Shown in pieces: positions 24,704-30,167 of a stretch of 64,000 nucleotides of DNA. The position numbers and the translations under genes were made by a program. Positions within the stretch are counted from its first letter, which is position 1. Every line of letters begins with the position of its first letter. The notes under the pieces are model-generated. The model had not been told where the DNA came from. It made no database searches and saw nothing but the letters and a program-made list of their open reading frames with translations. The DNA is from Gammaproteobacteria bacterium (GTDB lineage: Bacteria; Pseudomonadota; Gammaproteobacteria; CAJXQU01), in assembly GCA_965238175.1 (NCBI GenBank), contig CBDEGZ010000003.1, positions 1,024,001-1,088,000 on the forward strand. The letters run 5' to 3'.

Positions 24704-26158
24704 TCATGGGTTATTTATATTTATAGGGTTTGTACTAAAATGATCTGCAATAACCTCTGCCACGCAACAGGTTAATTTCTTCCCAGTAGGTATATGTAAA
24801 AACTCATTCGGACCGTGGGCATTTGATTTTGGTCCGAGGACGCCGGTGATCATAAATTGTGCTTGTGGAAATTTTTCACCGAGCATTCCCATAAATGGAA
24901 TTGATCCGCCTTCGCCCATATGTACGGCTTGTTTGCCGAAGAAATCCTTTGATGCGTTATTGATTGAATCTTCTAGCCATGGTGTCAGCTCAGGTGCATG
25001 CCAGCCACTTGCAGCCCAGTCAGGAGTGAAGGTGATTTTTGCATTGTAGGGTGGATCACTTTCCAAAATTTGTTTGAGCTTGTTCGAGGCAATTTCAGCA
25101 TCCACTGTTGGCGGTAATCGTAGTGATAATTTGATTGATGTTTTAGGACGTAGAACATTTCCAGCACTTTCAATATCTGGCAATCCACCTGCACCGATGA
25201 CCGACAAGGCAGGTCGCCATGTTCTGTTTAGAACCAGTTCTGCGAGATCATAACTGATCGGTTTTGCTTTATGGTTTTCTTCTCCAACAAAAGGAAATCG
25301 TGAGTAAGATTTTTCGCCGATTACCTCCGCAGCAATTTTCGCTTGTTGTTGTCGTGATTGTGGAATTTCAGCCTGACATTCTGCAAGTAATATTTCGCCG
25401 GTTTCTGCATTTTCGATGCGGTCAATTAATTGTCGAACGATCCGAAAGGAGTCGGGAACAATCCCACTGGCATCGCCAGAATGTGCGCCTTGTTTGATGA
25501 TTTCTACGGAGAGTTCACCGCCAGCCAATCCGCGTAAAGAGGATGTGCACCAGAGTTGATCATAATTTCCGCAACCGGAATCTAAACATATGACTAAATC
25601 TGGTTGACCGATACGATCAGAAAGTTCGTCAATGTAAAAAGGCAGATCGTAACTGCCGCTTTCTTCACAGGCTTCGATGATGACAACGCATCGTGCATGT
25701 GGAATATTTTGTTTTTGTAACGCAGTAATCGCAGTGAGGGACGAGAACATTGCATAGCCATCATCAGCGCCACCACGACCGTACAATTTGTCGTCTTTGA
25801 TTACCGGAGTCCACGGGCCGAGCCCTTCCTTCCAACCGGTCATTTCCGGTTGTTTATCGAGATGGCCATAGAGCAAAATCGTGTTGTCAGATTTGCTTGC
25901 TTCAGTGGCTGGAATATCCATAAAAATTAAAGGCGTTCTTCCTTCAAGCCGAACGACGTCTAATTCCATTTCTGGATTTTTTTGATCTTTGGCCCAACGA
26001 ACAAATTGATCAACGACTTTTTCCATGTAGCCATTTTCTTGCCAATCTGGATCAAACGCTGGAGATTTATTTGGGATACGAATGTAATCAACGAGTTCGG
26101 GAATTATTTGGTCATCCCAAACTTTTTCGACGTAGTTTTGTAATTCTTTTTTATTCAT
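24704..26158 (-). CDS. M20-family metallopeptidase
   Basis: YGHLDKQP, GRGGADDG, EESGS, HSG, AHGPNE. Confidence 0.93.
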   Translation of the reverse strand: MNKKELQNYVEKVWDDQIIPELVDYIRIPNKSPAFDPDWQENGYMEKVVDQFVRWAKDQKNPEMELDVVRLEGRTPLIFMDIPATEASKSDNTILLYGHLDKQPEMTGWKEGLGPWTPVIKDDKLYGRGGADDGYAMFSSLTAITALQKQNIPHARCVVIIEACEESGSYDLPFYIDELSDRIGQPDLVICLDSGCGNYDQLWCTSSLRGLAGGELSVEIIKQGAHSGDASGIVPDSFRIVRQLIDRIENAETGEILLAECQAEIPQSRQQQAKIAAEVIGEKSYSRFPFVGEENHKAKPISYDLAELVLNRTWRPALSVIGAGGLPDIESAGNVLRPKTSIKLSLRLPPTVDAEIASNKLKQILESDPPYNAKITFTPDWAASGWHAPELTPWLEDSINNASKDFFGKQAVHMGEGGSIPFMGMLGEKFPQAQFMITGVLGPKSNAHGPNEFLHIPTGKKLTCCVAEVIADHFSTNPININNP

Positions 26159-26280
26159 TTTCAGATTATATTTTTAGATAATTTTATAAGTAACCTGATG
26201 TGATGGTCTCCTCCCCCTAACGGCATCTAGGTGCCATGATTGAACTGACATACACACAATCAAAAGAGGAGAAGACCAAA

Positions 26281-27294
26281 ATGAAGACTACAACAATCGG
26301 GTTAGACATAGCAAAAAACGTATTTCATGCTGTCTGCTGTAATCAACAAGGGCGTATAATCAAAAAGAAAATGTTAAAGCGAGCGCAGGTACTCTCCTTT
26401 TTTCAATCTCAACCTCCTTGTTTAGTCGCAATAGAATCTTGTGCAACGTCACAGTATTGGGCCCGAGCGATACAACAACAGGGACATCAGGTGAAATTAC
26501 TACCACCTCAGCATGTTAACGCATTTCTAATCGGCAATAAGAATGATTATAACGATGCCTTGGCCATCGCCGTTGCTGCGAAACAACCTCATTTAAAAAG
26601 TGTGGGCATTAAATCAGTTGAGCAACAAGACAACCAGGCACAACATAAAGCAAGAGACTTAGCGGTCAGACAAAGAACCGCATTATGTAACCAAATGAGA
26701 GCGCTTGTTGCAGAATATGGCATTAGCCTTCGTCCCGGCCTAAATACCCTACGTCAATCTATCCCGTTGCTATTAAGTGATGAGAACGAACGGTTGTCCG
26801 TTACTTTCAAAAGGATACTGCGCCAGCTAAAGGAACAATGGCAATCACTTGATGCCTGTATTGCGACATTTGACCAATTGATCATTCAATCGGCAAAAAA
26901 CAATGCGATTTGCCAACGCTTACAAACTATTCCAGGGTTTGGGCCGATGGTCTCGAGCGCGTATTTTAATGAAGTGGGAAACGGCGCTCATTATCACAAA
27001 GGGCGCGATGTGTCCGCCTCATTAGGACTTGTTCCACGACAGTACAGTAGTGGTGGTAAAGAGGTGCTACTGGGGATCAGTAAACGCGGCAATAAATACC
27101 TTCGTTGTTTGTTAATTCTAGGCGCGAAGGCCGTGGTATCAAGAGCCAAAACGAAAGGCGATAAACTGAGTCAATGGATTAATCGTTTAGTTGAGACGCG
27201 GGGGCATAATCGAGCGTGTGTGGCGTATGCCAACAAAATGGCAAGAATGGCCTGGGCTATAACGGTTTCTGGTGATGACTACTCACCGGCCTAA
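26281..27294 (+). CDS. IS110-family DEDD recombinase/transposase
   Basis: GLDIAK, IESC and KNDYNDA (DEDD), SSGGK serine; GAGGAG RBS. Confidence 0.95.
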   Translation: MKTTTIGLDIAKNVFHAVCCNQQGRIIKKKMLKRAQVLSFFQSQPPCLVAIESCATSQYWARAIQQQGHQVKLLPPQHVNAFLIGNKNDYNDALAIAVAAKQPHLKSVGIKSVEQQDNQAQHKARDLAVRQRTALCNQMRALVAEYGISLRPGLNTLRQSIPLLLSDENERLSVTFKRILRQLKEQWQSLDACIATFDQLIIQSAKNNAICQRLQTIPGFGPMVSSAYFNEVGNGAHYHKGRDVSASLGLVPRQYSSGGKEVLLGISKRGNKYLRCLLILGAKAVVSRAKTKGDKLSQWINRLVETRGHNRACVAYANKMARMAWAITVSGDDYSPA

Positions 27295-27339
27295 ATAGAG
27301 AGAACAAATCATTTCAACGAATTGCGAAGGTAAAACTAA

Positions 27340-27500
27340 AGATGGCATAACAGGTCAAACCAGCCTATTGAAAACCTGTCGAGCTCAGGGGTAACTAATA
27401 CCGATAACCTGATAAGGAAAATAGGCGCGTAATACATCCAGGTCAGAAGTTGAAAACTTCATTGAAGGCCGTATATATGACAGCAATCCTGTCCCTGTTA
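27340..27500 (+). ncRNA. predicted bridge/seek RNA of IS1111 copy 1 (boundaries approximate)
   Basis: Contains TAACCTGA (matches the target), ATATATGA (matches the circle junction) and closing stems CCTATT/AATAGG and GAAGTT/AACTTC. Confidence 0.7.
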
Positions 27501-27577
27501 TCTGAATGTTTTATCTTGCAATACGGGAGGAGACCATATATGAATTCGGGATAAGAATGACTATAAAAACATTAAAG

Positions 27578-28803
27578 TGTAGAAATTCAGATTTGATCTG
27601 ACAGTTACCCAATTATCAGTAACCGACTGTCAGGTTAAGTTTAATTCACAAACTTTTCCTTCCAGATAGCTTGTCCGTCGATGAGTGTTTCCATCGGCGT
27701 CCTCCCGCAGCACATTTTGCCTTGGTGAGTTCGTTGAGTATTGTATTTGAGCAACCATTCGTCAAGGTCGAGTTGCAGTTCATCAATCGATTGGTAAATT
27801 TTCTTACGCAAAGCGACTTGATAAAACTCATTGAGGATCGTCTTATGGAATCGCTCACAAATACCATTCGTCTGAGGTGATTTGACCTTGGTTTTGGTGT
27901 GTTCGATATTGTTCAACGCCATATAAAGCTGATAATCATGCTGGTCAGCTCGCCCACAATACTCCGTCCCTCTATCTGTCAAAATGCGCAACATAGGCAA
28001 ACGTTGTTGTTCGTAGAATGGGAGGACGCGGTCATTGAGCATGTCAGCTGCCGTAATCGGTGTTTTAGTCGGGTACAGTTTCGCGTGAGCGACCTTGCTG
28101 TAAGTATCAACAAACGTTTGTTGATAAACCCGACCAATGCCTTTGAAAGTACCGACATAGTAAGTATCTTGCGAGCCAAGATAACCAGGGTGTGCCGTTT
28201 CTATCTCGCCACAAGCCTCATCGTCGTCTTTTTTGCGTTCCATCGCCGCGACTTGAGACTCAGTGAGGATCAAGCCTTCACCAGCTACCTTATCAGACAA
28301 TGCCTTCAGGCGATCTTTAAAGCAAGCAAGACCATGACGAAGCCAGATACAACGAACGCCACTGGGTGAGACAAATGTTCCCCGTTTGCGCAGCTCGTTA
28401 CTGGTGCGCGTTTGACCATGTGCGGGCTCTTCCAGTGCATACTCGAGCACAACGGTTTCAATAGCCGGGTCGATTCTGTTTTTAAGATTTGGGGTACGCC
28501 GATTACGATCAAACAAGGCTTCTACACCGCCTTCATCAGCCGCTTCTTTGTAGCGATAAAATGTATCTCTGGACAAACCCATCATCTTGCAGGCTTTTGA
28601 GACATTGCCGAGTTCTTCAGCGAGATTGAGTAGACCAACTTTATGTTTTATAACTTTGTCATTAGTATGAATCATGAGAGTTACCTCTTTGTGTTTTGAT
28701 GTTTACGTTGCAGTTACATCAAAGCGGGTAACTCTCACTAAATCAAGCGTCGCTACGCTCCGCTTGATTTAGTGATGTGTCAGATTGGGTCTAAACTTCT
28801 ACA
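27578..28803 (-). mobile_element. IS481-family element, copy 1
   Basis: TGT...ACA ends, 26-bp imperfect IR; flanks ATTAAAG and GTTCA do not form a direct repeat. Confidence 0.93.
27641..28675 (-). CDS. IS481-family DDE transposase
   Basis: N-terminal HTH, SQDT, TDRGTEY, SPQTNGICERF. Confidence 0.95.
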   Translation of the reverse strand: MIHTNDKVIKHKVGLLNLAEELGNVSKACKMMGLSRDTFYRYKEAADEGGVEALFDRNRRTPNLKNRIDPAIETVVLEYALEEPAHGQTRTSNELRKRGTFVSPSGVRCIWLRHGLACFKDRLKALSDKVAGEGLILTESQVAAMERKKDDDEACGEIETAHPGYLGSQDTYYVGTFKGIGRVYQQTFVDTYSKVAHAKLYPTKTPITAADMLNDRVLPFYEQQRLPMLRILTDRGTEYCGRADQHDYQLYMALNNIEHTKTKVKSPQTNGICERFHKTILNEFYQVALRKKIYQSIDELQLDLDEWLLKYNTQRTHQGKMCCGRTPMETLIDGQAIWKEKFVN

Positions 28804-28848
28804 GTTCATATATGGTCTCCTCCCGTATTGCAAGATAAAACATTCAGA

Positions 28849-29009
28849 TAACAGGGACAGGATTGCTGTCATATATACGGCCTTCAATGAAGTTTTCAAC
28901 TTCTGACCTGGATGTATTACGCGCCTATTTTCCTTATCAGGTTATCGGTATTAGTTACCCCTGAGCTCGACAGGTTTTCAATAGGCTGGTTTGACCTGTT
29001 ATGCCATCT
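28849..29009 (-). ncRNA. predicted bridge/seek RNA of IS1111 copy 2 (boundaries approximate)
   Basis: Same non-coding end as copy 1. Confidence 0.7.
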
Positions 29010-29054
29010 TTAGTTTTACCTTCGCAATTCGTTGAAATGATTTGTTCTCTCTAT

Positions 29055-30068
29055 TTAGGCCGGTGAGTAGTCATCACCAGAAACCGTTATAGCCCAGGCC
29101 ATTCTTGCCATTTTGTTGGCATACGCCACACACGCTCGATTATGCCCCCGCGTCTCAACTAAACGATTAATCCATTGACTCAGTTTATCGCCTTTCGTTT
29201 TGGCTCTTGATACCACGGCCTTCGCGCCTAGAATTAACAAACAACGAAGGTATTTATTGCCGCGTTTACTGATCCCCAGTAGCACCTCTTTACCACCACT
29301 ACTGTACTGTCGTGGAACAAGTCCTAATGAGGCGGACACATCGCGCCCTTTGTGATAATGAGCGCCGTTTCCCACTTCATTAAAATACGCGCTCGAGACC
29401 ATCGGCCCAAACCCTGGAATAGTTTGTAAGCGTTGGCAAATCGCATTGTTTTTTGCCGATTGAATGATCAATTGGTCAAATGTCGCAATACAGGCATCAA
29501 GTGATTGCCATTGTTCCTTTAGCTGGCGCAGTATCCTTTTGAAAGTAACGGACAACCGTTCGTTCTCATCACTTAATAGCAACGGGATAGATTGACGTAG
29601 GGTATTTAGGCCGGGACGAAGGCTAATGCCATATTCTGCAACAAGCGCTCTCATTTGGTTACATAATGCGGTTCTTTGTCTGACCGCTAAGTCTCTTGCT
29701 TTATGTTGTGCCTGGTTGTCTTGTTGCTCAACTGATTTAATGCCCACACTTTTTAAATGAGGTTGTTTCGCAGCAACGGCGATGGCCAAGGCATCGTTAT
29801 AATCATTCTTATTGCCGATTAGAAATGCGTTAACATGCTGAGGTGGTAGTAATTTCACCTGATGTCCCTGTTGTTGTATCGCTCGGGCCCAATACTGTGA
29901 CGTTGCACAAGATTCTATTGCGACTAAACAAGGAGGTTGAGATTGAAAAAAGGAGAGTACCTGCGCTCGCTTTAACATTTTCTTTTTGATTATACGCCCT
30001 TGTTGATTACAGCAGACAGCATGAAATACGTTTTTTGCTATGTCTAACCCGATTGTTGTAGTCTTCAT
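29055..30068 (-). CDS. IS110-family DEDD recombinase/transposase
   Basis: Identical to 26281-27294. Confidence 0.95.
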   Translation of the reverse strand: MKTTTIGLDIAKNVFHAVCCNQQGRIIKKKMLKRAQVLSFFQSQPPCLVAIESCATSQYWARAIQQQGHQVKLLPPQHVNAFLIGNKNDYNDALAIAVAAKQPHLKSVGIKSVEQQDNQAQHKARDLAVRQRTALCNQMRALVAEYGISLRPGLNTLRQSIPLLLSDENERLSVTFKRILRQLKEQWQSLDACIATFDQLIIQSAKNNAICQRLQTIPGFGPMVSSAYFNEVGNGAHYHKGRDVSASLGLVPRQYSSGGKEVLLGISKRGNKYLRCLLILGAKAVVSRAKTKGDKLSQWINRLVETRGHNRACVAYANKMARMAWAITVSGDDYSPA

Positions 30069-30167
30069 TTTGGTCTTCTCCTCTTTTGATTGTGTGTATG
30101 TCAGTTCAATCATGGCACCTAGATGCCGTTAGGGGGAGGAGACCATCACATCAGGTTAAGTATTTTT

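What the first reader, a model, noticed from the sequence alone, without database searches (positions are those of the whole stretch)
27340..27500. IS1111 bridge/seek RNA whose target and donor guides can be read from the sequence
Seen: both copies sit in TAACC^TGAA (copy 1 TAACC^TGAATTCG; copy 2 TAACC^TGAACTGT). The non-coding end has a loop closed by CCTATT/AATAGG (27364-27425). It holds CGAGCTCA (27380-27387, near-complement of the right target half TGAATTCG), a GGTA/TACC hairpin, and TAACCTGA (27405-27412, identical to the left target half plus core). A second module holds TACATCCA (27433-27440, near-complement of the left end TGATGTG), a GAAGTT/AACTTC hairpin, and ATATATGA (27473-27480, identical to the circle junction). 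Established: IS110/IS1111 recombinases use such RNA guides, encoded downstream of the gene in the IS1111 group. Inference: a recently active natural RNA-guided recombinase with a TGA-type core and a predictable target.
Basis: partly seen in the sequence, partly recalled or inferred. Interest (0 to 1): 0.8.

Follow-up and report, generated by a model that had tools for sequence, protein, structure and literature searches.

The report
IS1111-type insertion sequence with guide RNA
This is a recently multiplied jumping gene of a known RNA-guided family, and the short stretches in its tail that spell out where it inserts can be read from the DNA and change with the insertion site in dozens of relatives.

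Summary

- **The element.** Window 26196-27542 is a 1345-bp IS1111-group insertion sequence. It has a DEDD/serine recombinase, 13-bp subterminal inverted repeats and a 248-nt non-coding tail.
- **Copies.** The genome holds 24 full copies and one cut by a contig end; 22 are identical. All 25 sit after AACC (24 after TAACC).
- **Target guides.** Matches were 492 of 583, against 194.5 ± 13 when flanks were permuted.
- **RNA fold.** The fold around the guides is kept by compensatory changes: 97.5% of cells paired, against 33-39% when partners were slid.
- **Donor guides.** The donor segments (27433-27439 and 27473-27479) also follow the element's ends, but this rests on only about four independent changes.
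- **Corrections.** The shared core is the dinucleotide TG (YG in the family), not TGA. The eighth base of TAACCTGA and of ATATATGA is scaffold. The right target guide mismatches 21 of 24 sites at one position.
- **Not shown.** No RNA was seen, because the sequencing-run tool was unreachable.

This is a new member of a known kind.

The parts
26191..26195 (+). Left target half, TAACC (flank, not part of the element)
   Evidence: 24 of 25 copies have TAACC and 25 of 25 have AACC at this place. It is identical to guide bases 27405-27409.
26196..26197 (+). TG, the dinucleotide shared by both junctions and by the empty site ('core'; YG in the family)
   Evidence: Empty sites read TAACC-TG-AACTCGGG.
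26198..26215 (+). Left end: extension ATGTG (26198-26202) and subterminal inverted repeat ATGGTCTCCTCCC (26203-26215)
   Evidence: It is the inverted repeat of 27525-27537. The same repeat core, ATGGTCTCC, is found in 60 of 80 related loci.
26281..27294 (+). Recombinase gene (337 aa from the ATG at 26281; the ORF list starts it at 26236)
   Evidence: PF01548 + PF02371. NF033542, 302.9 bits. Relatives align from residue 1 of the 26281 start. The C-terminal part aligns to IS621 transposase 8wt6 (E 2.3e-4), with GLVPRQYSSG over GLTPRRYESG.
27350..27492 (+). Predicted bridge/seek RNA scaffold enclosed by the outer stem ACAGG (27350-27354) / CCTGT (27488-27492)
   Evidence: Structure counted on 54 sequences: 31 pairs, 97.5% of cells paired against 32.5-39.1% when slid, 20 pairs with changes on both sides, 0 of 500 shuffles as high. 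RNAalifold consensus.
27363..27426 (+). Target-binding module: closing stem GCCTATT (27363-27369) / AATAGGC (27420-27426), inner pairs CCT (27375-27377) / AGG (27415-27417), distal hairpin GGTA (27390-27393) / TACC (27399-27402)
   Evidence: Helices 2, 3 and 4. Pairs with changes on both sides: 6 of 8, 1 of 3 and 4 of 4.
27380..27389 (+). Right target guide CGAGCUCAGG, complementary to the top strand CC-TG-AGCTCG (27379 U may add a G-U pair)
   Evidence: In the homologous columns, Watson-Crick matches to the right flank are 46, 48, 43, 42, 37 and 36 of 53 for positions +1 to +6. Core columns: 48 and 44 of 53; left flank -1: 39 of 53.
27404..27411 (+). Left target guide AUAACCUG, identical to the top strand (T)TAACC-TG. 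A at 27412 is scaffold.
   Evidence: Columns identical to left flank -5 to -1 in 42, 47, 50, 50 and 51 of 53. The next column is A in 45 of 53 regardless of target.
27427..27484 (+). Donor-binding module: GC (27427-27428) / GC (27483-27484), distal stem GGTC (27441-27444) / GGCC (27467-27470), hairpin GAAGTT (27446-27451) / AACTTC (27455-27460)
   Evidence: Helices 5, 6 and 7. Helix 6 is 100% paired with 2 covarying pairs. Helix 7 has 5 of 5 pairs with changes on both sides.
27433..27439 (+). Right donor guide UACAUCC: UACAUC pairs with G-ATGTG of the left end (one G-U). The last C faces the core T (mismatch; G in 7 of the 8 closest elements' relatives = wobble)
   Evidence: Fourth base of the left-end extension against guide column 99: Watson-Crick in 52 of 54 (T:A 11, A:U 41). 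There are 5 changes on the tree and 4 independent pairs, all in the same direction.
27473..27479 (+). Left donor guide AUAUAUG, identical to the right end ATATA-TG. A at 27480 is scaffold.
   Evidence: The first core base of the guide equals the first core base at the right junction in 51 of 54. There are 11 independent pairs on the tree (4 on supported branches), none opposite.
27516..27542 (+). -35-like TTGCAA (27516-27521), a 17-nt spacer, then TATG (27539-27542), which becomes TATGAT only when the right end is joined to the left end (circle-junction promoter)
   Evidence: Read from the sequence. 'cttgcaa' is kept at this place in all relatives printed. Junction promoters are described for ISEc11 (PMC11187229). 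Not tested.
27525..27542 (+). Right end: subterminal inverted repeat GGGAGGAGACCAT (27525-27537), extension ATA (27538-27540), TG (27541-27542)
27543..27549 (+). Right target half of this copy, AATTCGG (majority of copies: AACTCGG)
28807..30153 (-). Second identical copy, in TAACC-TG-AACTGTAG, 2 bp from the end of an IS481-family element

Best explanation
Window 26196-27542 is an active-looking IS1111-group insertion sequence.

**RNA and guides (inferred).** Its 3' non-coding region is transcribed into a structured RNA of about 140 nt, a seekRNA or bridge RNA. This RNA is bound by the element's DEDD/serine recombinase. It carries four guide segments.
- In the first module, CGAGCUCAGG (27380-27389) pairs with the top strand of CC-TG-AGCTCG. 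AUAACCUG (27404-27411) pairs with the bottom strand of TAACC-TG. Together they select the site TAACC|TG|A(A/G)CTCG.
- In the second module, UACAUC(C) (27433-27439) pairs with the top strand of the left end G-ATGTG. AUAUAUG (27473-27479) pairs with the bottom strand of the right end ATATA-TG. Together they hold the joined ends of the excised circle.

**Recombination and expression (inferred).** Recombination at the shared TG inserts the 1345-bp element without a duplication. The circle junction also assembles a promoter (TTGCAA-17-TATGAT) that would drive the recombinase gene and the RNA.

**Shown here:** the anatomy, the copy number and site preference, covariation of the two target guides with flanks, a conserved and compensated RNA fold, and consistency of the donor segments with the ends.

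**Not shown here:** that an RNA is made, that it binds the recombinase, and the chemistry.
For: - **Family.** PF01548 + PF02371. NF033542 at 302.9 bits. C-terminal alignment to IS621 transposase, with the serine-glycine motif aligned.
- **Ends.** 13-bp subterminal repeats.
- **Copies.** 22 full copies at 100%, 2 at 99.926% and 1 cut by the contig start. The two variant bases (26919, 27466) are not in guides.
- **Sites.** 24 of 25 copies lie after TAACC. Empty sites read TAACC-TG-AACTCGGG.
- **Exact matches in relatives.** The longest exact match to the left flank plus core falls 137-146 nt from the right end, and the longest match to the complement of the right flank falls 161-175 nt from it, in most relatives.
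- **Alignment-based matches.** Left guide 6.49 of 8 and right guide 7.92 of 11 for own flanks, against 3.21 and 4.06 for other loci's flanks.
- **Permutation.** 492 of 583 against a permuted mean of 194.5, sd 13.2, maximum 233, with 47 distinct targets in 53 loci.
- **Fold.** 97.5% paired, 20 of 31 pairs compensated.
- **Donor segments.** 52 of 54 and 51 of 54 concordant.
- **Occupancy of TAACCTG sites in this genome.** 17 occupied and 17 empty when at least 4 of 6 right-flank bases pair with the guide, against 7 occupied and 474 empty otherwise.
- **Congener.** A same-genus relative carries the guide CGAATTCAG next to the flank TGAATTCG, a perfect match.
- **Literature.** The order and overlap of the two target matches agree with PMC11187229. 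Placement in the right end and donor bases in a multiloop agree with PMC11208160.
Against: - **No RNA evidence.** The look-up of sequencing runs could not be reached in five tries.
- **No curated family.** Rfam 15 has no family that matches the region, so there is no curated model to test against.
- **Guide mismatch.** The right target guide does not match most of its own sites perfectly. The second right-flank base is G, as the guide demands, in only 3 of 24 sites; no occupied site scores 6 of 6. The one perfect site in the genome (C3, about 393,937, plus strand) is empty.
- **Core mismatch.** The right donor guide has C opposite the core T.
- **Thin donor covariation.** It rests on few independent events: 4 pairs for the left end, of which 1 is on supported branches. 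The sign test cannot reach 0.05.
- **Possible redundancy of the second module.** For ISEc11 a short 82-nt seekRNA holding only the target module sufficed for transposition (PMC11187229). The second module may therefore not be needed.
- **Confounded occupancy.** The occupancy contrast is confounded by the targets belonging to one repeat family.
Confidence: 0.88

Rival explanations
1. The conserved tail acts as DNA, not RNA. The segments would be recombinase-binding or synapsis sites in the right end, for instance folded single-stranded DNA during transposition. The flank-matching stretches would pair DNA to DNA.
For: Nothing here distinguishes RNA from single-stranded DNA. Compensatory changes and guide-flank covariation would arise in both cases. 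No transcript was seen (searches were unanswered).
Against: For four IS1111-family members the tail-derived RNA co-purified with the transposase, was RNase-sensitive and worked in trans from a T7 promoter (PMC11187229). The recombinase here reaches the NCBIfam model named 'RNA-guided transposase'.
Confidence: 0.05
2. Site choice is made by the protein, which recognises a repeat-family sequence. The flank-like stretches in the tail would be passengers, for instance bits of target captured by imprecise excision.
For: Most occupied sites belong to one repeat family (TAACCTGAACTCGGGATAAGAATGAC...). That alone would give a consensus. The guide is not a perfect match to most sites.
Against: - Captured flank would lie at the element's tips, not 130-170 nt inside, within a conserved fold.
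- One segment is the complement and the other the identity of the target, in fixed register, in 53 loci with 47 targets.
- About 60 IS481-family copies each carry TAACCTGACAGTCG. Only one is occupied, so the left half alone is not enough.
Confidence: 0.04
3. Only the first module (target guides) is functional. The second module is a structural scaffold, and its resemblance to the ends reflects conserved sequence on both sides, not pairing.
For: - The ends are nearly invariant in the family, so concordance of 52 of 54 and 51 of 54 reflects few events.
- The short ISEc11 seekRNA without this part was sufficient (PMC11187229).
- C faces the core T in this element.
- In 11 of 54 relatives the two donor segments imply different first core bases.
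Against: - All 4 independent switches of the left end (ATGT / ATGA) are matched by A / U in the guide. All informative switches of the right core are matched by the guide.
- Durrant et al. report donor-complementary bases in a multiloop for IS1111 orthologues (PMC11208160).
- One relative (L035) lost this module and differs from its genome-mates. This is compatible with decay, though it is not evidence on its own.
Confidence: 0.15

Closest known systems
IS1111-family seekRNA elements ISEc11, ISPa11, ISKpn4, ISPst6 (Siddiquee et al. 2024, PMC11187229; abstract and whole Results section read)
   Same: - DEDD transposase with the GL-P----S(T)G motif.
- Subterminal inverted repeats with a 7-nt left extension (if TG is counted with the element).
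- A long non-coding region downstream of the gene.
- No target duplication.
- Two short matches to the target, the top-strand-complementary one lying 5' of the other, which overlap in the target.
- Targets in repeats.
- A promoter formed at the circle junction.
   Different: - Here nothing is experimental.
- The transposase is a distinct lineage: 45-46% identical to the best plasmid-borne IS110-family genes and 49-78% to the 80 loci.
- The paper defines target matches only. Here a second, end-matching module is also read.
IS621 bridge RNA (Durrant et al. 2024, PMC11208160, and Hiraizumi et al. 2024, PMC11208158; passages read)
   Same: - Four guide segments in two modules.
- In each module one segment is identical to the top strand (it pairs with the bottom strand) and one is complementary to it.
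- A dinucleotide core whose second base is invariant and whose first is variable.
- Targets in repeats.
   Different: - The RNA lies in the right end, not the left.
- The order of the two guides within each module is reversed.
- The donor segments lie between helices closed by only two G-C pairs and an outer stem, rather than in a simple internal loop.
- The core is YG, not CT.
- Protein similarity is limited to the C-terminal domain (E 2.3e-4).
ISPpu9 / Ssr9 small RNA of Pseudomonas putida (PMC12288879; search listing and start of abstract only)
   Same: An IS110-family element inserted in repeats, with a small-RNA gene downstream of the transposase gene.
   Different: ISPpu9 has extra solo copies of the RNA gene. 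Here BLAST of the whole element found no tail-only copies, only left-end fragments.

Membership tests
IS1111 group of the IS110 family | DEDD (RuvC-like) N-terminal domain plus a PF02371 C-terminal domain, related over the full length | tested here: met
   PF01548 at 3.6e-16 and PF02371 at 6.4e-20. NF033542 matches residues 5-331 of 337 at 302.9 bits.
IS1111 group of the IS110 family | Subterminal inverted repeats of 7-17 bp with short terminal extensions | tested here: met
   13 bp: ATGGTCTCCTCCC / GGGAGGAGACCAT. The extensions are TGATGTG on the left and ATA on the right. The length range is as stated in PMC11208160.
IS1111 group of the IS110 family | The longer non-coding region lies downstream of the transposase gene | tested here: met
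   248 nt from 27295 to the end, against 85 nt upstream (26196-26280). Criterion from PMC11187229.
IS1111 group of the IS110 family | GL-P----S(T)G motif in the C-terminal domain | tested here: met
   GLVPRQYSSG in the translation. It aligns to GLTPRRYESG of IS621. Motif as written in PMC11187229.
IS1111 group of the IS110 family | Site-specific insertion in one orientation without target duplication | tested here: met
   25 of 25 copies lie after AACC-TG. Empty sites TAACCTGAACTCGGG hold one TG.
seekRNA / bridge RNA | [quoted passage not shown] | tested here: met
   492 of 583 matches against 194.5 ± 13.2 permuted; 47 targets in 53 loci. Per-locus listing.
seekRNA / bridge RNA | IS1111 order: the top-strand-complementary segment lies 5' of the bottom-strand-complementary segment, and the two overlap in the target | tested here: met
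   27380-27389 lies 5' of 27404-27411. Both cover TG, and the first also covers the last left-flank base (39 of 53 Watson-Crick). Rule from PMC11187229.
seekRNA / bridge RNA | Conserved secondary structure that presents the guides in loops | tested here: met
seekRNA / bridge RNA | Donor-binding segments that match the joined ends | tested here: inconclusive
   Concordant in 52 of 54 and 51 of 54, but only about 4 independent events. One mismatch lies at the core in this element.
seekRNA / bridge RNA | The RNA is made, is bound by the recombinase and is required | not testable with these tools
   The sequencing-run tool was unreachable. There is no bench work.
seekRNA / bridge RNA | Match to a curated RNA family | tested here: not met
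   No Rfam 15 hit on 27295-27542 at E up to 10. To my recollection Rfam holds no such family, so this says little.

The most novel reading that the evidence does not exclude
In this IS1111 subfamily the strands that are inherited cross over 5' of the first 'core' base, not 3' of the core as in IS621. An alternative is that the circle junction travels as a T-G heteroduplex.

- In 11 of 54 relatives, forming two clades, the left junction reads T-G and the right junction C-G. The reverse is never seen.
- Further copies in those genomes repeat the pattern.
- Empty sites there read C-G: 94 against 1, and mostly C in a second clade.
- Three guides say C. Only the right donor guide says T.

If this is real, the four guides of IS1111 elements are tuned to the junctions rather than to one circle sequence. 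The element in this window (T-G on both sides, with C facing the T) would then be one state of that system.
Probability: 0.25. Interest if true: 0.5.

Novelty: new member of a known kind. Interest (0 to 1): 0.35.

Why it matters
- **A natural set of guide-target pairs.** RNA-guided IS110/IS1111 recombinases are being developed as genome-writing tools. This finding gives one scaffold with 47 naturally different guide-target pairs and a worked register. The right guide covers 2 left-flank bases, the core and 6-7 right-flank bases. The left guide covers 5-6 left-flank bases and the core.
- **Evidence on the second module.** It adds comparative evidence that IS1111-type RNAs also carry an end-matching second module.
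- **A tolerated mismatch.** It is a natural example of a tolerated guide mismatch: 21 of 24 insertion sites mismatch at one position.
- **For the host genome.** It explains 25 of the many insertion-sequence copies. It predicts where further copies can land: only 4 empty sites pair at 5 or more of 6 right-flank positions.

It does not change what is known about the mechanism.

Tried and rejected
- **Rfam scan** of 26000-27800 at E up to 10: nothing on the tail. There was only a sub-threshold psRNA2 match (26.2 bits against 65) on the neighbouring IS481-family end.
- **Single-sequence folding**: z = -2.47. It pairs CCTG with the guide's CAGG, which the alignment does not support. The alignment-based structure was used instead.
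- **Exact-word search** of the tail with the window copy's own right flank: it finds no right-guide match, because this copy has two non-Watson-Crick positions. The segment shows only with the genome consensus and with relatives.
- **TGA as a three-base core:** rejected.
- **AACCTG at 27373-27378 as a guide:** rejected, because it is invariant scaffold (GAAAACCTG) in relatives.
- **Near-identical copies on plasmids**: none.
- **Protein search of plasmids**: only 45-46% identical genes. One was inspected. Its left-guide position matches its left flank in 7 of 8 bases, but its right end is cut by an IS5 copy, so it was not used.
- **The look-up of sequencing runs** was unreachable five times, so read laying was never used.
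- **The host organism** was not identified.
- **Supplementary files** of the papers (fold figures and target logos for ISPa11 and others) were not seen. They may hold a donor-segment assignment for IS1111 elements that I could not compare with.

Full report
**What is there.** The region 26196-27542 is one insertion sequence.
- It begins TG-ATGTG-ATGGTCTCCTCCC and ends GGGAGGAGACCAT-ATA-TG. That is a 13-bp subterminal inverted repeat with short extensions.
- It carries one gene (26281-27294, 337 aa) with Pfam DEDD_Tnp_IS110 and Transposase_20.
- The gene reaches NCBIfam NF033542, 'IS110 family RNA-guided transposase', at 302.9 bits against a cut-off of 140.
- The C-terminal domain aligns to the solved IS621 transposase (8wt6, E 2.3e-4), with GLVPRQYSSG over GLTPRRYESG. 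This is the serine-glycine motif that Siddiquee et al. give as GL-P----S(t)G for IS1111 transposases (PMC11187229).
- After the stop codon come 248 non-coding bases. Before the start there are 85.
- A second identical copy lies at 28807-30153 on the other strand.
- Between the two copies lies an IS481-family element (27578-28803, minus strand; NF033577 at 278.4 bits).

**Copies in the genome.**
- A BLAST of the element against the window's own genome (3.35 Mb, 3 contigs) gives 22 full copies at 100%, 2 at 99.926%, and 1 copy cut by the start of the contig. There are also 5 left-end fragments.
- The two variant bases are at 26919 (in the gene) and 27466 (beside a stem). Neither is in a guide.
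- All 25 copies follow AACC, and 24 follow TAACC.
- Among the 24 known right flanks, the bases after TG are as follows.

| Right-flank position | Commonest base | Count of 24 |
|---|---|---|
| +1 | A | 24 |
| +2 | A (G in 3) | 19 |
| +3 | C (T in 5) | 16 |
| +4 | T | 22 |
| +5 | C | 17 |
| +6 | G | 14 |

- Empty sites such as TAACCTGAACTCGGGATAAG hold a single TG. Insertion therefore adds 1345 bp and no duplication.

**Are the guide-like segments real?** I fetched 80 loci that encode relatives of the recombinase, 49-78% identical, mostly from marine Gammaproteobacteria and Desulfuromonadales assemblies.
- Sixty of the 80 have both anchors ATGGTCTCC and GGAGACCAT around the gene. The other 20 were dropped because they reach a contig end, have a different repeat (for example ATGGACCC) or showed no repeat.
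- Six more were dropped as duplicates of the same tail. One (L035) was dropped because its second module is deleted. That left 54 sequences including the window.
- One further locus (L059) lacks a left flank, so the flank tests use 53.
- Without any alignment, the longest exact match to 'left flank + core' falls 137-146 nt from the right end in most loci. The longest match to the complement of 'core + right flank' falls 161-175 nt from it. These are the places homologous to 27405 and 27380.
- On the alignment, each locus's own flanks match its left-guide columns in 6.49 of 8 and pair with its right-guide columns in 7.92 of 11. Flanks of other loci give 3.21 and 4.06.
- Leaving out the core columns, the total is 492 of 583. 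With flanks permuted among loci it is 194.5 ± 13.2, with a maximum of 233 in 2000 permutations. The 53 loci have 47 distinct targets.
- A same-genus genome holds a fragment of an 84%-identical tail. Its right guide, CGAATTCAG, is the perfect complement of its flank TGAATTCG.

The two target guides are therefore established as well as comparison can establish them.

**The fold.**
- RNAalifold and a pair count on a structure I named agree on seven helices:
  - an outer stem (27350-27354 / 27488-27492);
  - a stem closing the first module (27363-27369 / 27420-27426), with three inner pairs and a distal hairpin (27390-27393 / 27399-27402);
  - two G-C pairs (27427-27428 / 27483-27484), a four-pair stem (27441-27444 / 27467-27470) and a hairpin, which frame the second module.
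- Of 1656 cells, 97.5% are standard pairs, against 32.5-39.1% when the 3' partners are slid by 1-3 columns.
- Twenty of 31 pairs show changes on both sides, and no shuffle of 500 reaches any of the five measures.
- The guides lie in the unpaired strands. The right target guide is 5' of the distal hairpin and the left target guide is 3' of it. The right donor guide lies between the first module and the four-pair stem. The left donor guide lies between that stem and the two G-C pairs.
- This is the reversed order reported for IS1111-type seekRNAs. It also resembles the 'multi-loop' placement of donor bases that Durrant et al. mention for IS1111 orthologues.

1. *The core.* Across the family the left junction reads flank-YG-ATG(T/A)(G/A)-repeat and the right junction reads repeat-ATA-YG-flank. 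The A that follows TG on both sides in this genome belongs to the conserved left extension on one side and to the target on the other.
   - In the RNA, the base after the left-guide core is A in 45 of 53 loci. It equals the first right-flank base in only 12 of 53.
   - The base after the left-donor core is G in 29 of 53, although the element always has A there.
   - So the shared core is the dinucleotide TG here, and the last letter of TAACCTGA and of ATATATGA is scaffold.
2. *Extent of the right target guide.* It is longer than the 8-mer named. It also pairs with the last left-flank base (39 of 53) and, less often, the one before (19 of 53). This is the 'overlap in the target' of Siddiquee et al.
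3. *A guide mismatch.* That guide carries C opposite the second right-flank base. Only 3 of 24 sites have the matching G, no occupied site pairs at all six positions, and the one perfect site in the genome is empty. All copies share the guide, so the burst of transposition took place with a one-base mismatch tolerated.
4. *The right donor guide.* UACAUC pairs with G-ATGTG with one G-U pair. The next base, C, faces the core T. Seven of the eight closest elements' relatives have G there, which is a wobble pair.

**Donor guides: how strong is the evidence?**
- The fourth base of the left extension (T or A) is Watson-Crick to guide column 99 in 52 of 54 loci.
- The first core base at the right junction equals that of the left donor guide in 51 of 54.
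- On a FastTree tree of the 54 recombinases, the left-end character changes 5 times and gives 4 independent pairs, 1 of them on well-supported branches. All go the same way.
- The right-core character gives 11 pairs, 4 on supported branches, none opposite.
- This is consistent and directional, but there are too few events for a test.
- The published finding that a short ISEc11 seekRNA without this part suffices keeps a rival reading alive.

**Does the second target guide matter in this genome?**
- Of 519 TAACCTG sites on both strands, 28 are followed by the element's left end, counting fragments.
- Among sites whose right flank pairs with the guide at 4 or more of 6 positions, 17 are occupied and 17 are empty.
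- Among the rest, 7 are occupied and 474 are empty. The empties include the 25 guide-coding copies inside the elements themselves.
- The IS481-family element has 64 BLAST hits, most of 1226 bp or more. It carries TAACCTGACAGTCG near its end, and only one of these sites holds a copy (C3:589238).
- The left half plus the core is therefore not enough.
- The contrast is confounded by the good sites belonging to one repeat family.

**Expression.**
- Joining the right end to the left end would create TTGCAA-17 nt-TATGAT. The -35-like hexamer is kept in all relatives shown.
- This agrees with the junction promoters described for ISEc11.
- The simple promoter scan found nothing on the plus strand of the linear copy.
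- No RNA data could be consulted.

**Distribution.**
- The element was not found in 5 of the 6 same-genus genomes searched, nor in 14 genomes of other families of the class.
- The sixth same-genus genome has only the 84%-identical fragment.
- With 22 identical copies, this indicates a recent burst in this lineage.

**Comparison with what is known.**
- It works like, and passes every testable criterion of, an IS1111-group element with a seekRNA or bridge RNA.
- It is not close to the experimentally studied members that I could compare. Plasmid-borne relatives are 45-46% identical.
- It is a new member of a known kind.
- What it adds is a large natural series of retargeted guides on one scaffold, a register for the four segments, comparative support for a donor module in IS1111 elements, and a natural case of mismatch tolerance.

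**An unexplained side observation.**
- In 11 of the 54 relatives, forming two clades, the left junction has T-G while the right has C-G. The reverse never occurs.
- Additional copies from three of those genomes repeat the pattern.
- Empty sites there are C-G: 94 against 1. C is also commoner in a second clade, although the background of that shorter pattern is high.
- The T therefore travels with the element's left end.
- In IS621 the top strand is cut 3' of the core (PMC11208158; PMC13626964). That geometry would leave the target's base at the left junction.
- Either the inherited exchange point lies 5' of the Y in this subfamily, or the circle carries a heteroduplex.
- The window's element has T on both sides and does not bear on this.

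Noticed in passing
Related loci L026, L028, L029, L047, L053, L056, L058, L063, L064, L070, L078; also L088 and L092: The left junction reads T-G but the right junction reads C-G in 11 of 54 relatives, in two clades. The reverse occurs in 0 of 54. Empty target sites in those genomes are C-G (94 against 1). The left and right target guides and the left donor guide say C; only the right donor guide says T. This does not fit a cut 3' of a two-base core as in IS621.
   Followed up: partly
window 27578-28803 (-): An IS481-family element (NF033577, 278.4 bits) has 64 BLAST hits in the genome, most full length at 99% or more. In the window it is flanked by the two inverted IS1111-type copies, 37 bp and 2 bp from its ends. 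Three genomic places share the arrangement copy-37 bp-IS481 with different left flanks (C3:6750, 1050196, 1390022).
   Followed up: partly
genome C3, about 393,937-393,962 (outside the window): The only site in the genome that matches both target guides perfectly (TTAACC-TG-AGCTCGGGG) is empty. It lies on the opposite strand, within about 26 bp of the right end of the copy at C3:393962-395307, and forms an inverted pair of half-sites with the occupied one.
   Followed up: no
window 27557-27606 (-): Sub-threshold Rfam match to psRNA2 (RF02349; 26.2 bits against gathering 65; E 0.0006) over the terminal inverted repeat of the IS481-family element. It probably reflects such an IS end within the Rfam seed.
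   Followed up: no
L035 (a relative in the same assembly as L030-L040): This copy has lost the stretch from the first-module closing stem to the left donor guide, that is the right donor guide and the hairpin. It is also a different subtype from its genome-mates. It may be a decayed element or a natural short form.
   Followed up: no
genome C3:2357911-2358288, 1154716-1154798, 1393274-1393313, 2897431-2897503: Four left-end fragments of this or an older related element (79-100% identical) each sit after TAACCTG or TAATCTG. They are remnants of earlier insertions at the same kind of site.
   Followed up: no
L087 (plasmid NZ_CP058173.1, 47093-49294): A 45%-identical IS110-family gene on an Enterobacter plasmid shows the same tail layout. 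Its left-guide position reads CTTTGTTG, against the left flank CTTTGTTA. Its right end is cut by an IS5 copy.
   Followed up: partly
relatives G005 and G015: Two relatives' genomes, one of the same genus, contain operator-withheld stretches (8000 and 1102 bases). The host organism was not identified.
   Followed up: no
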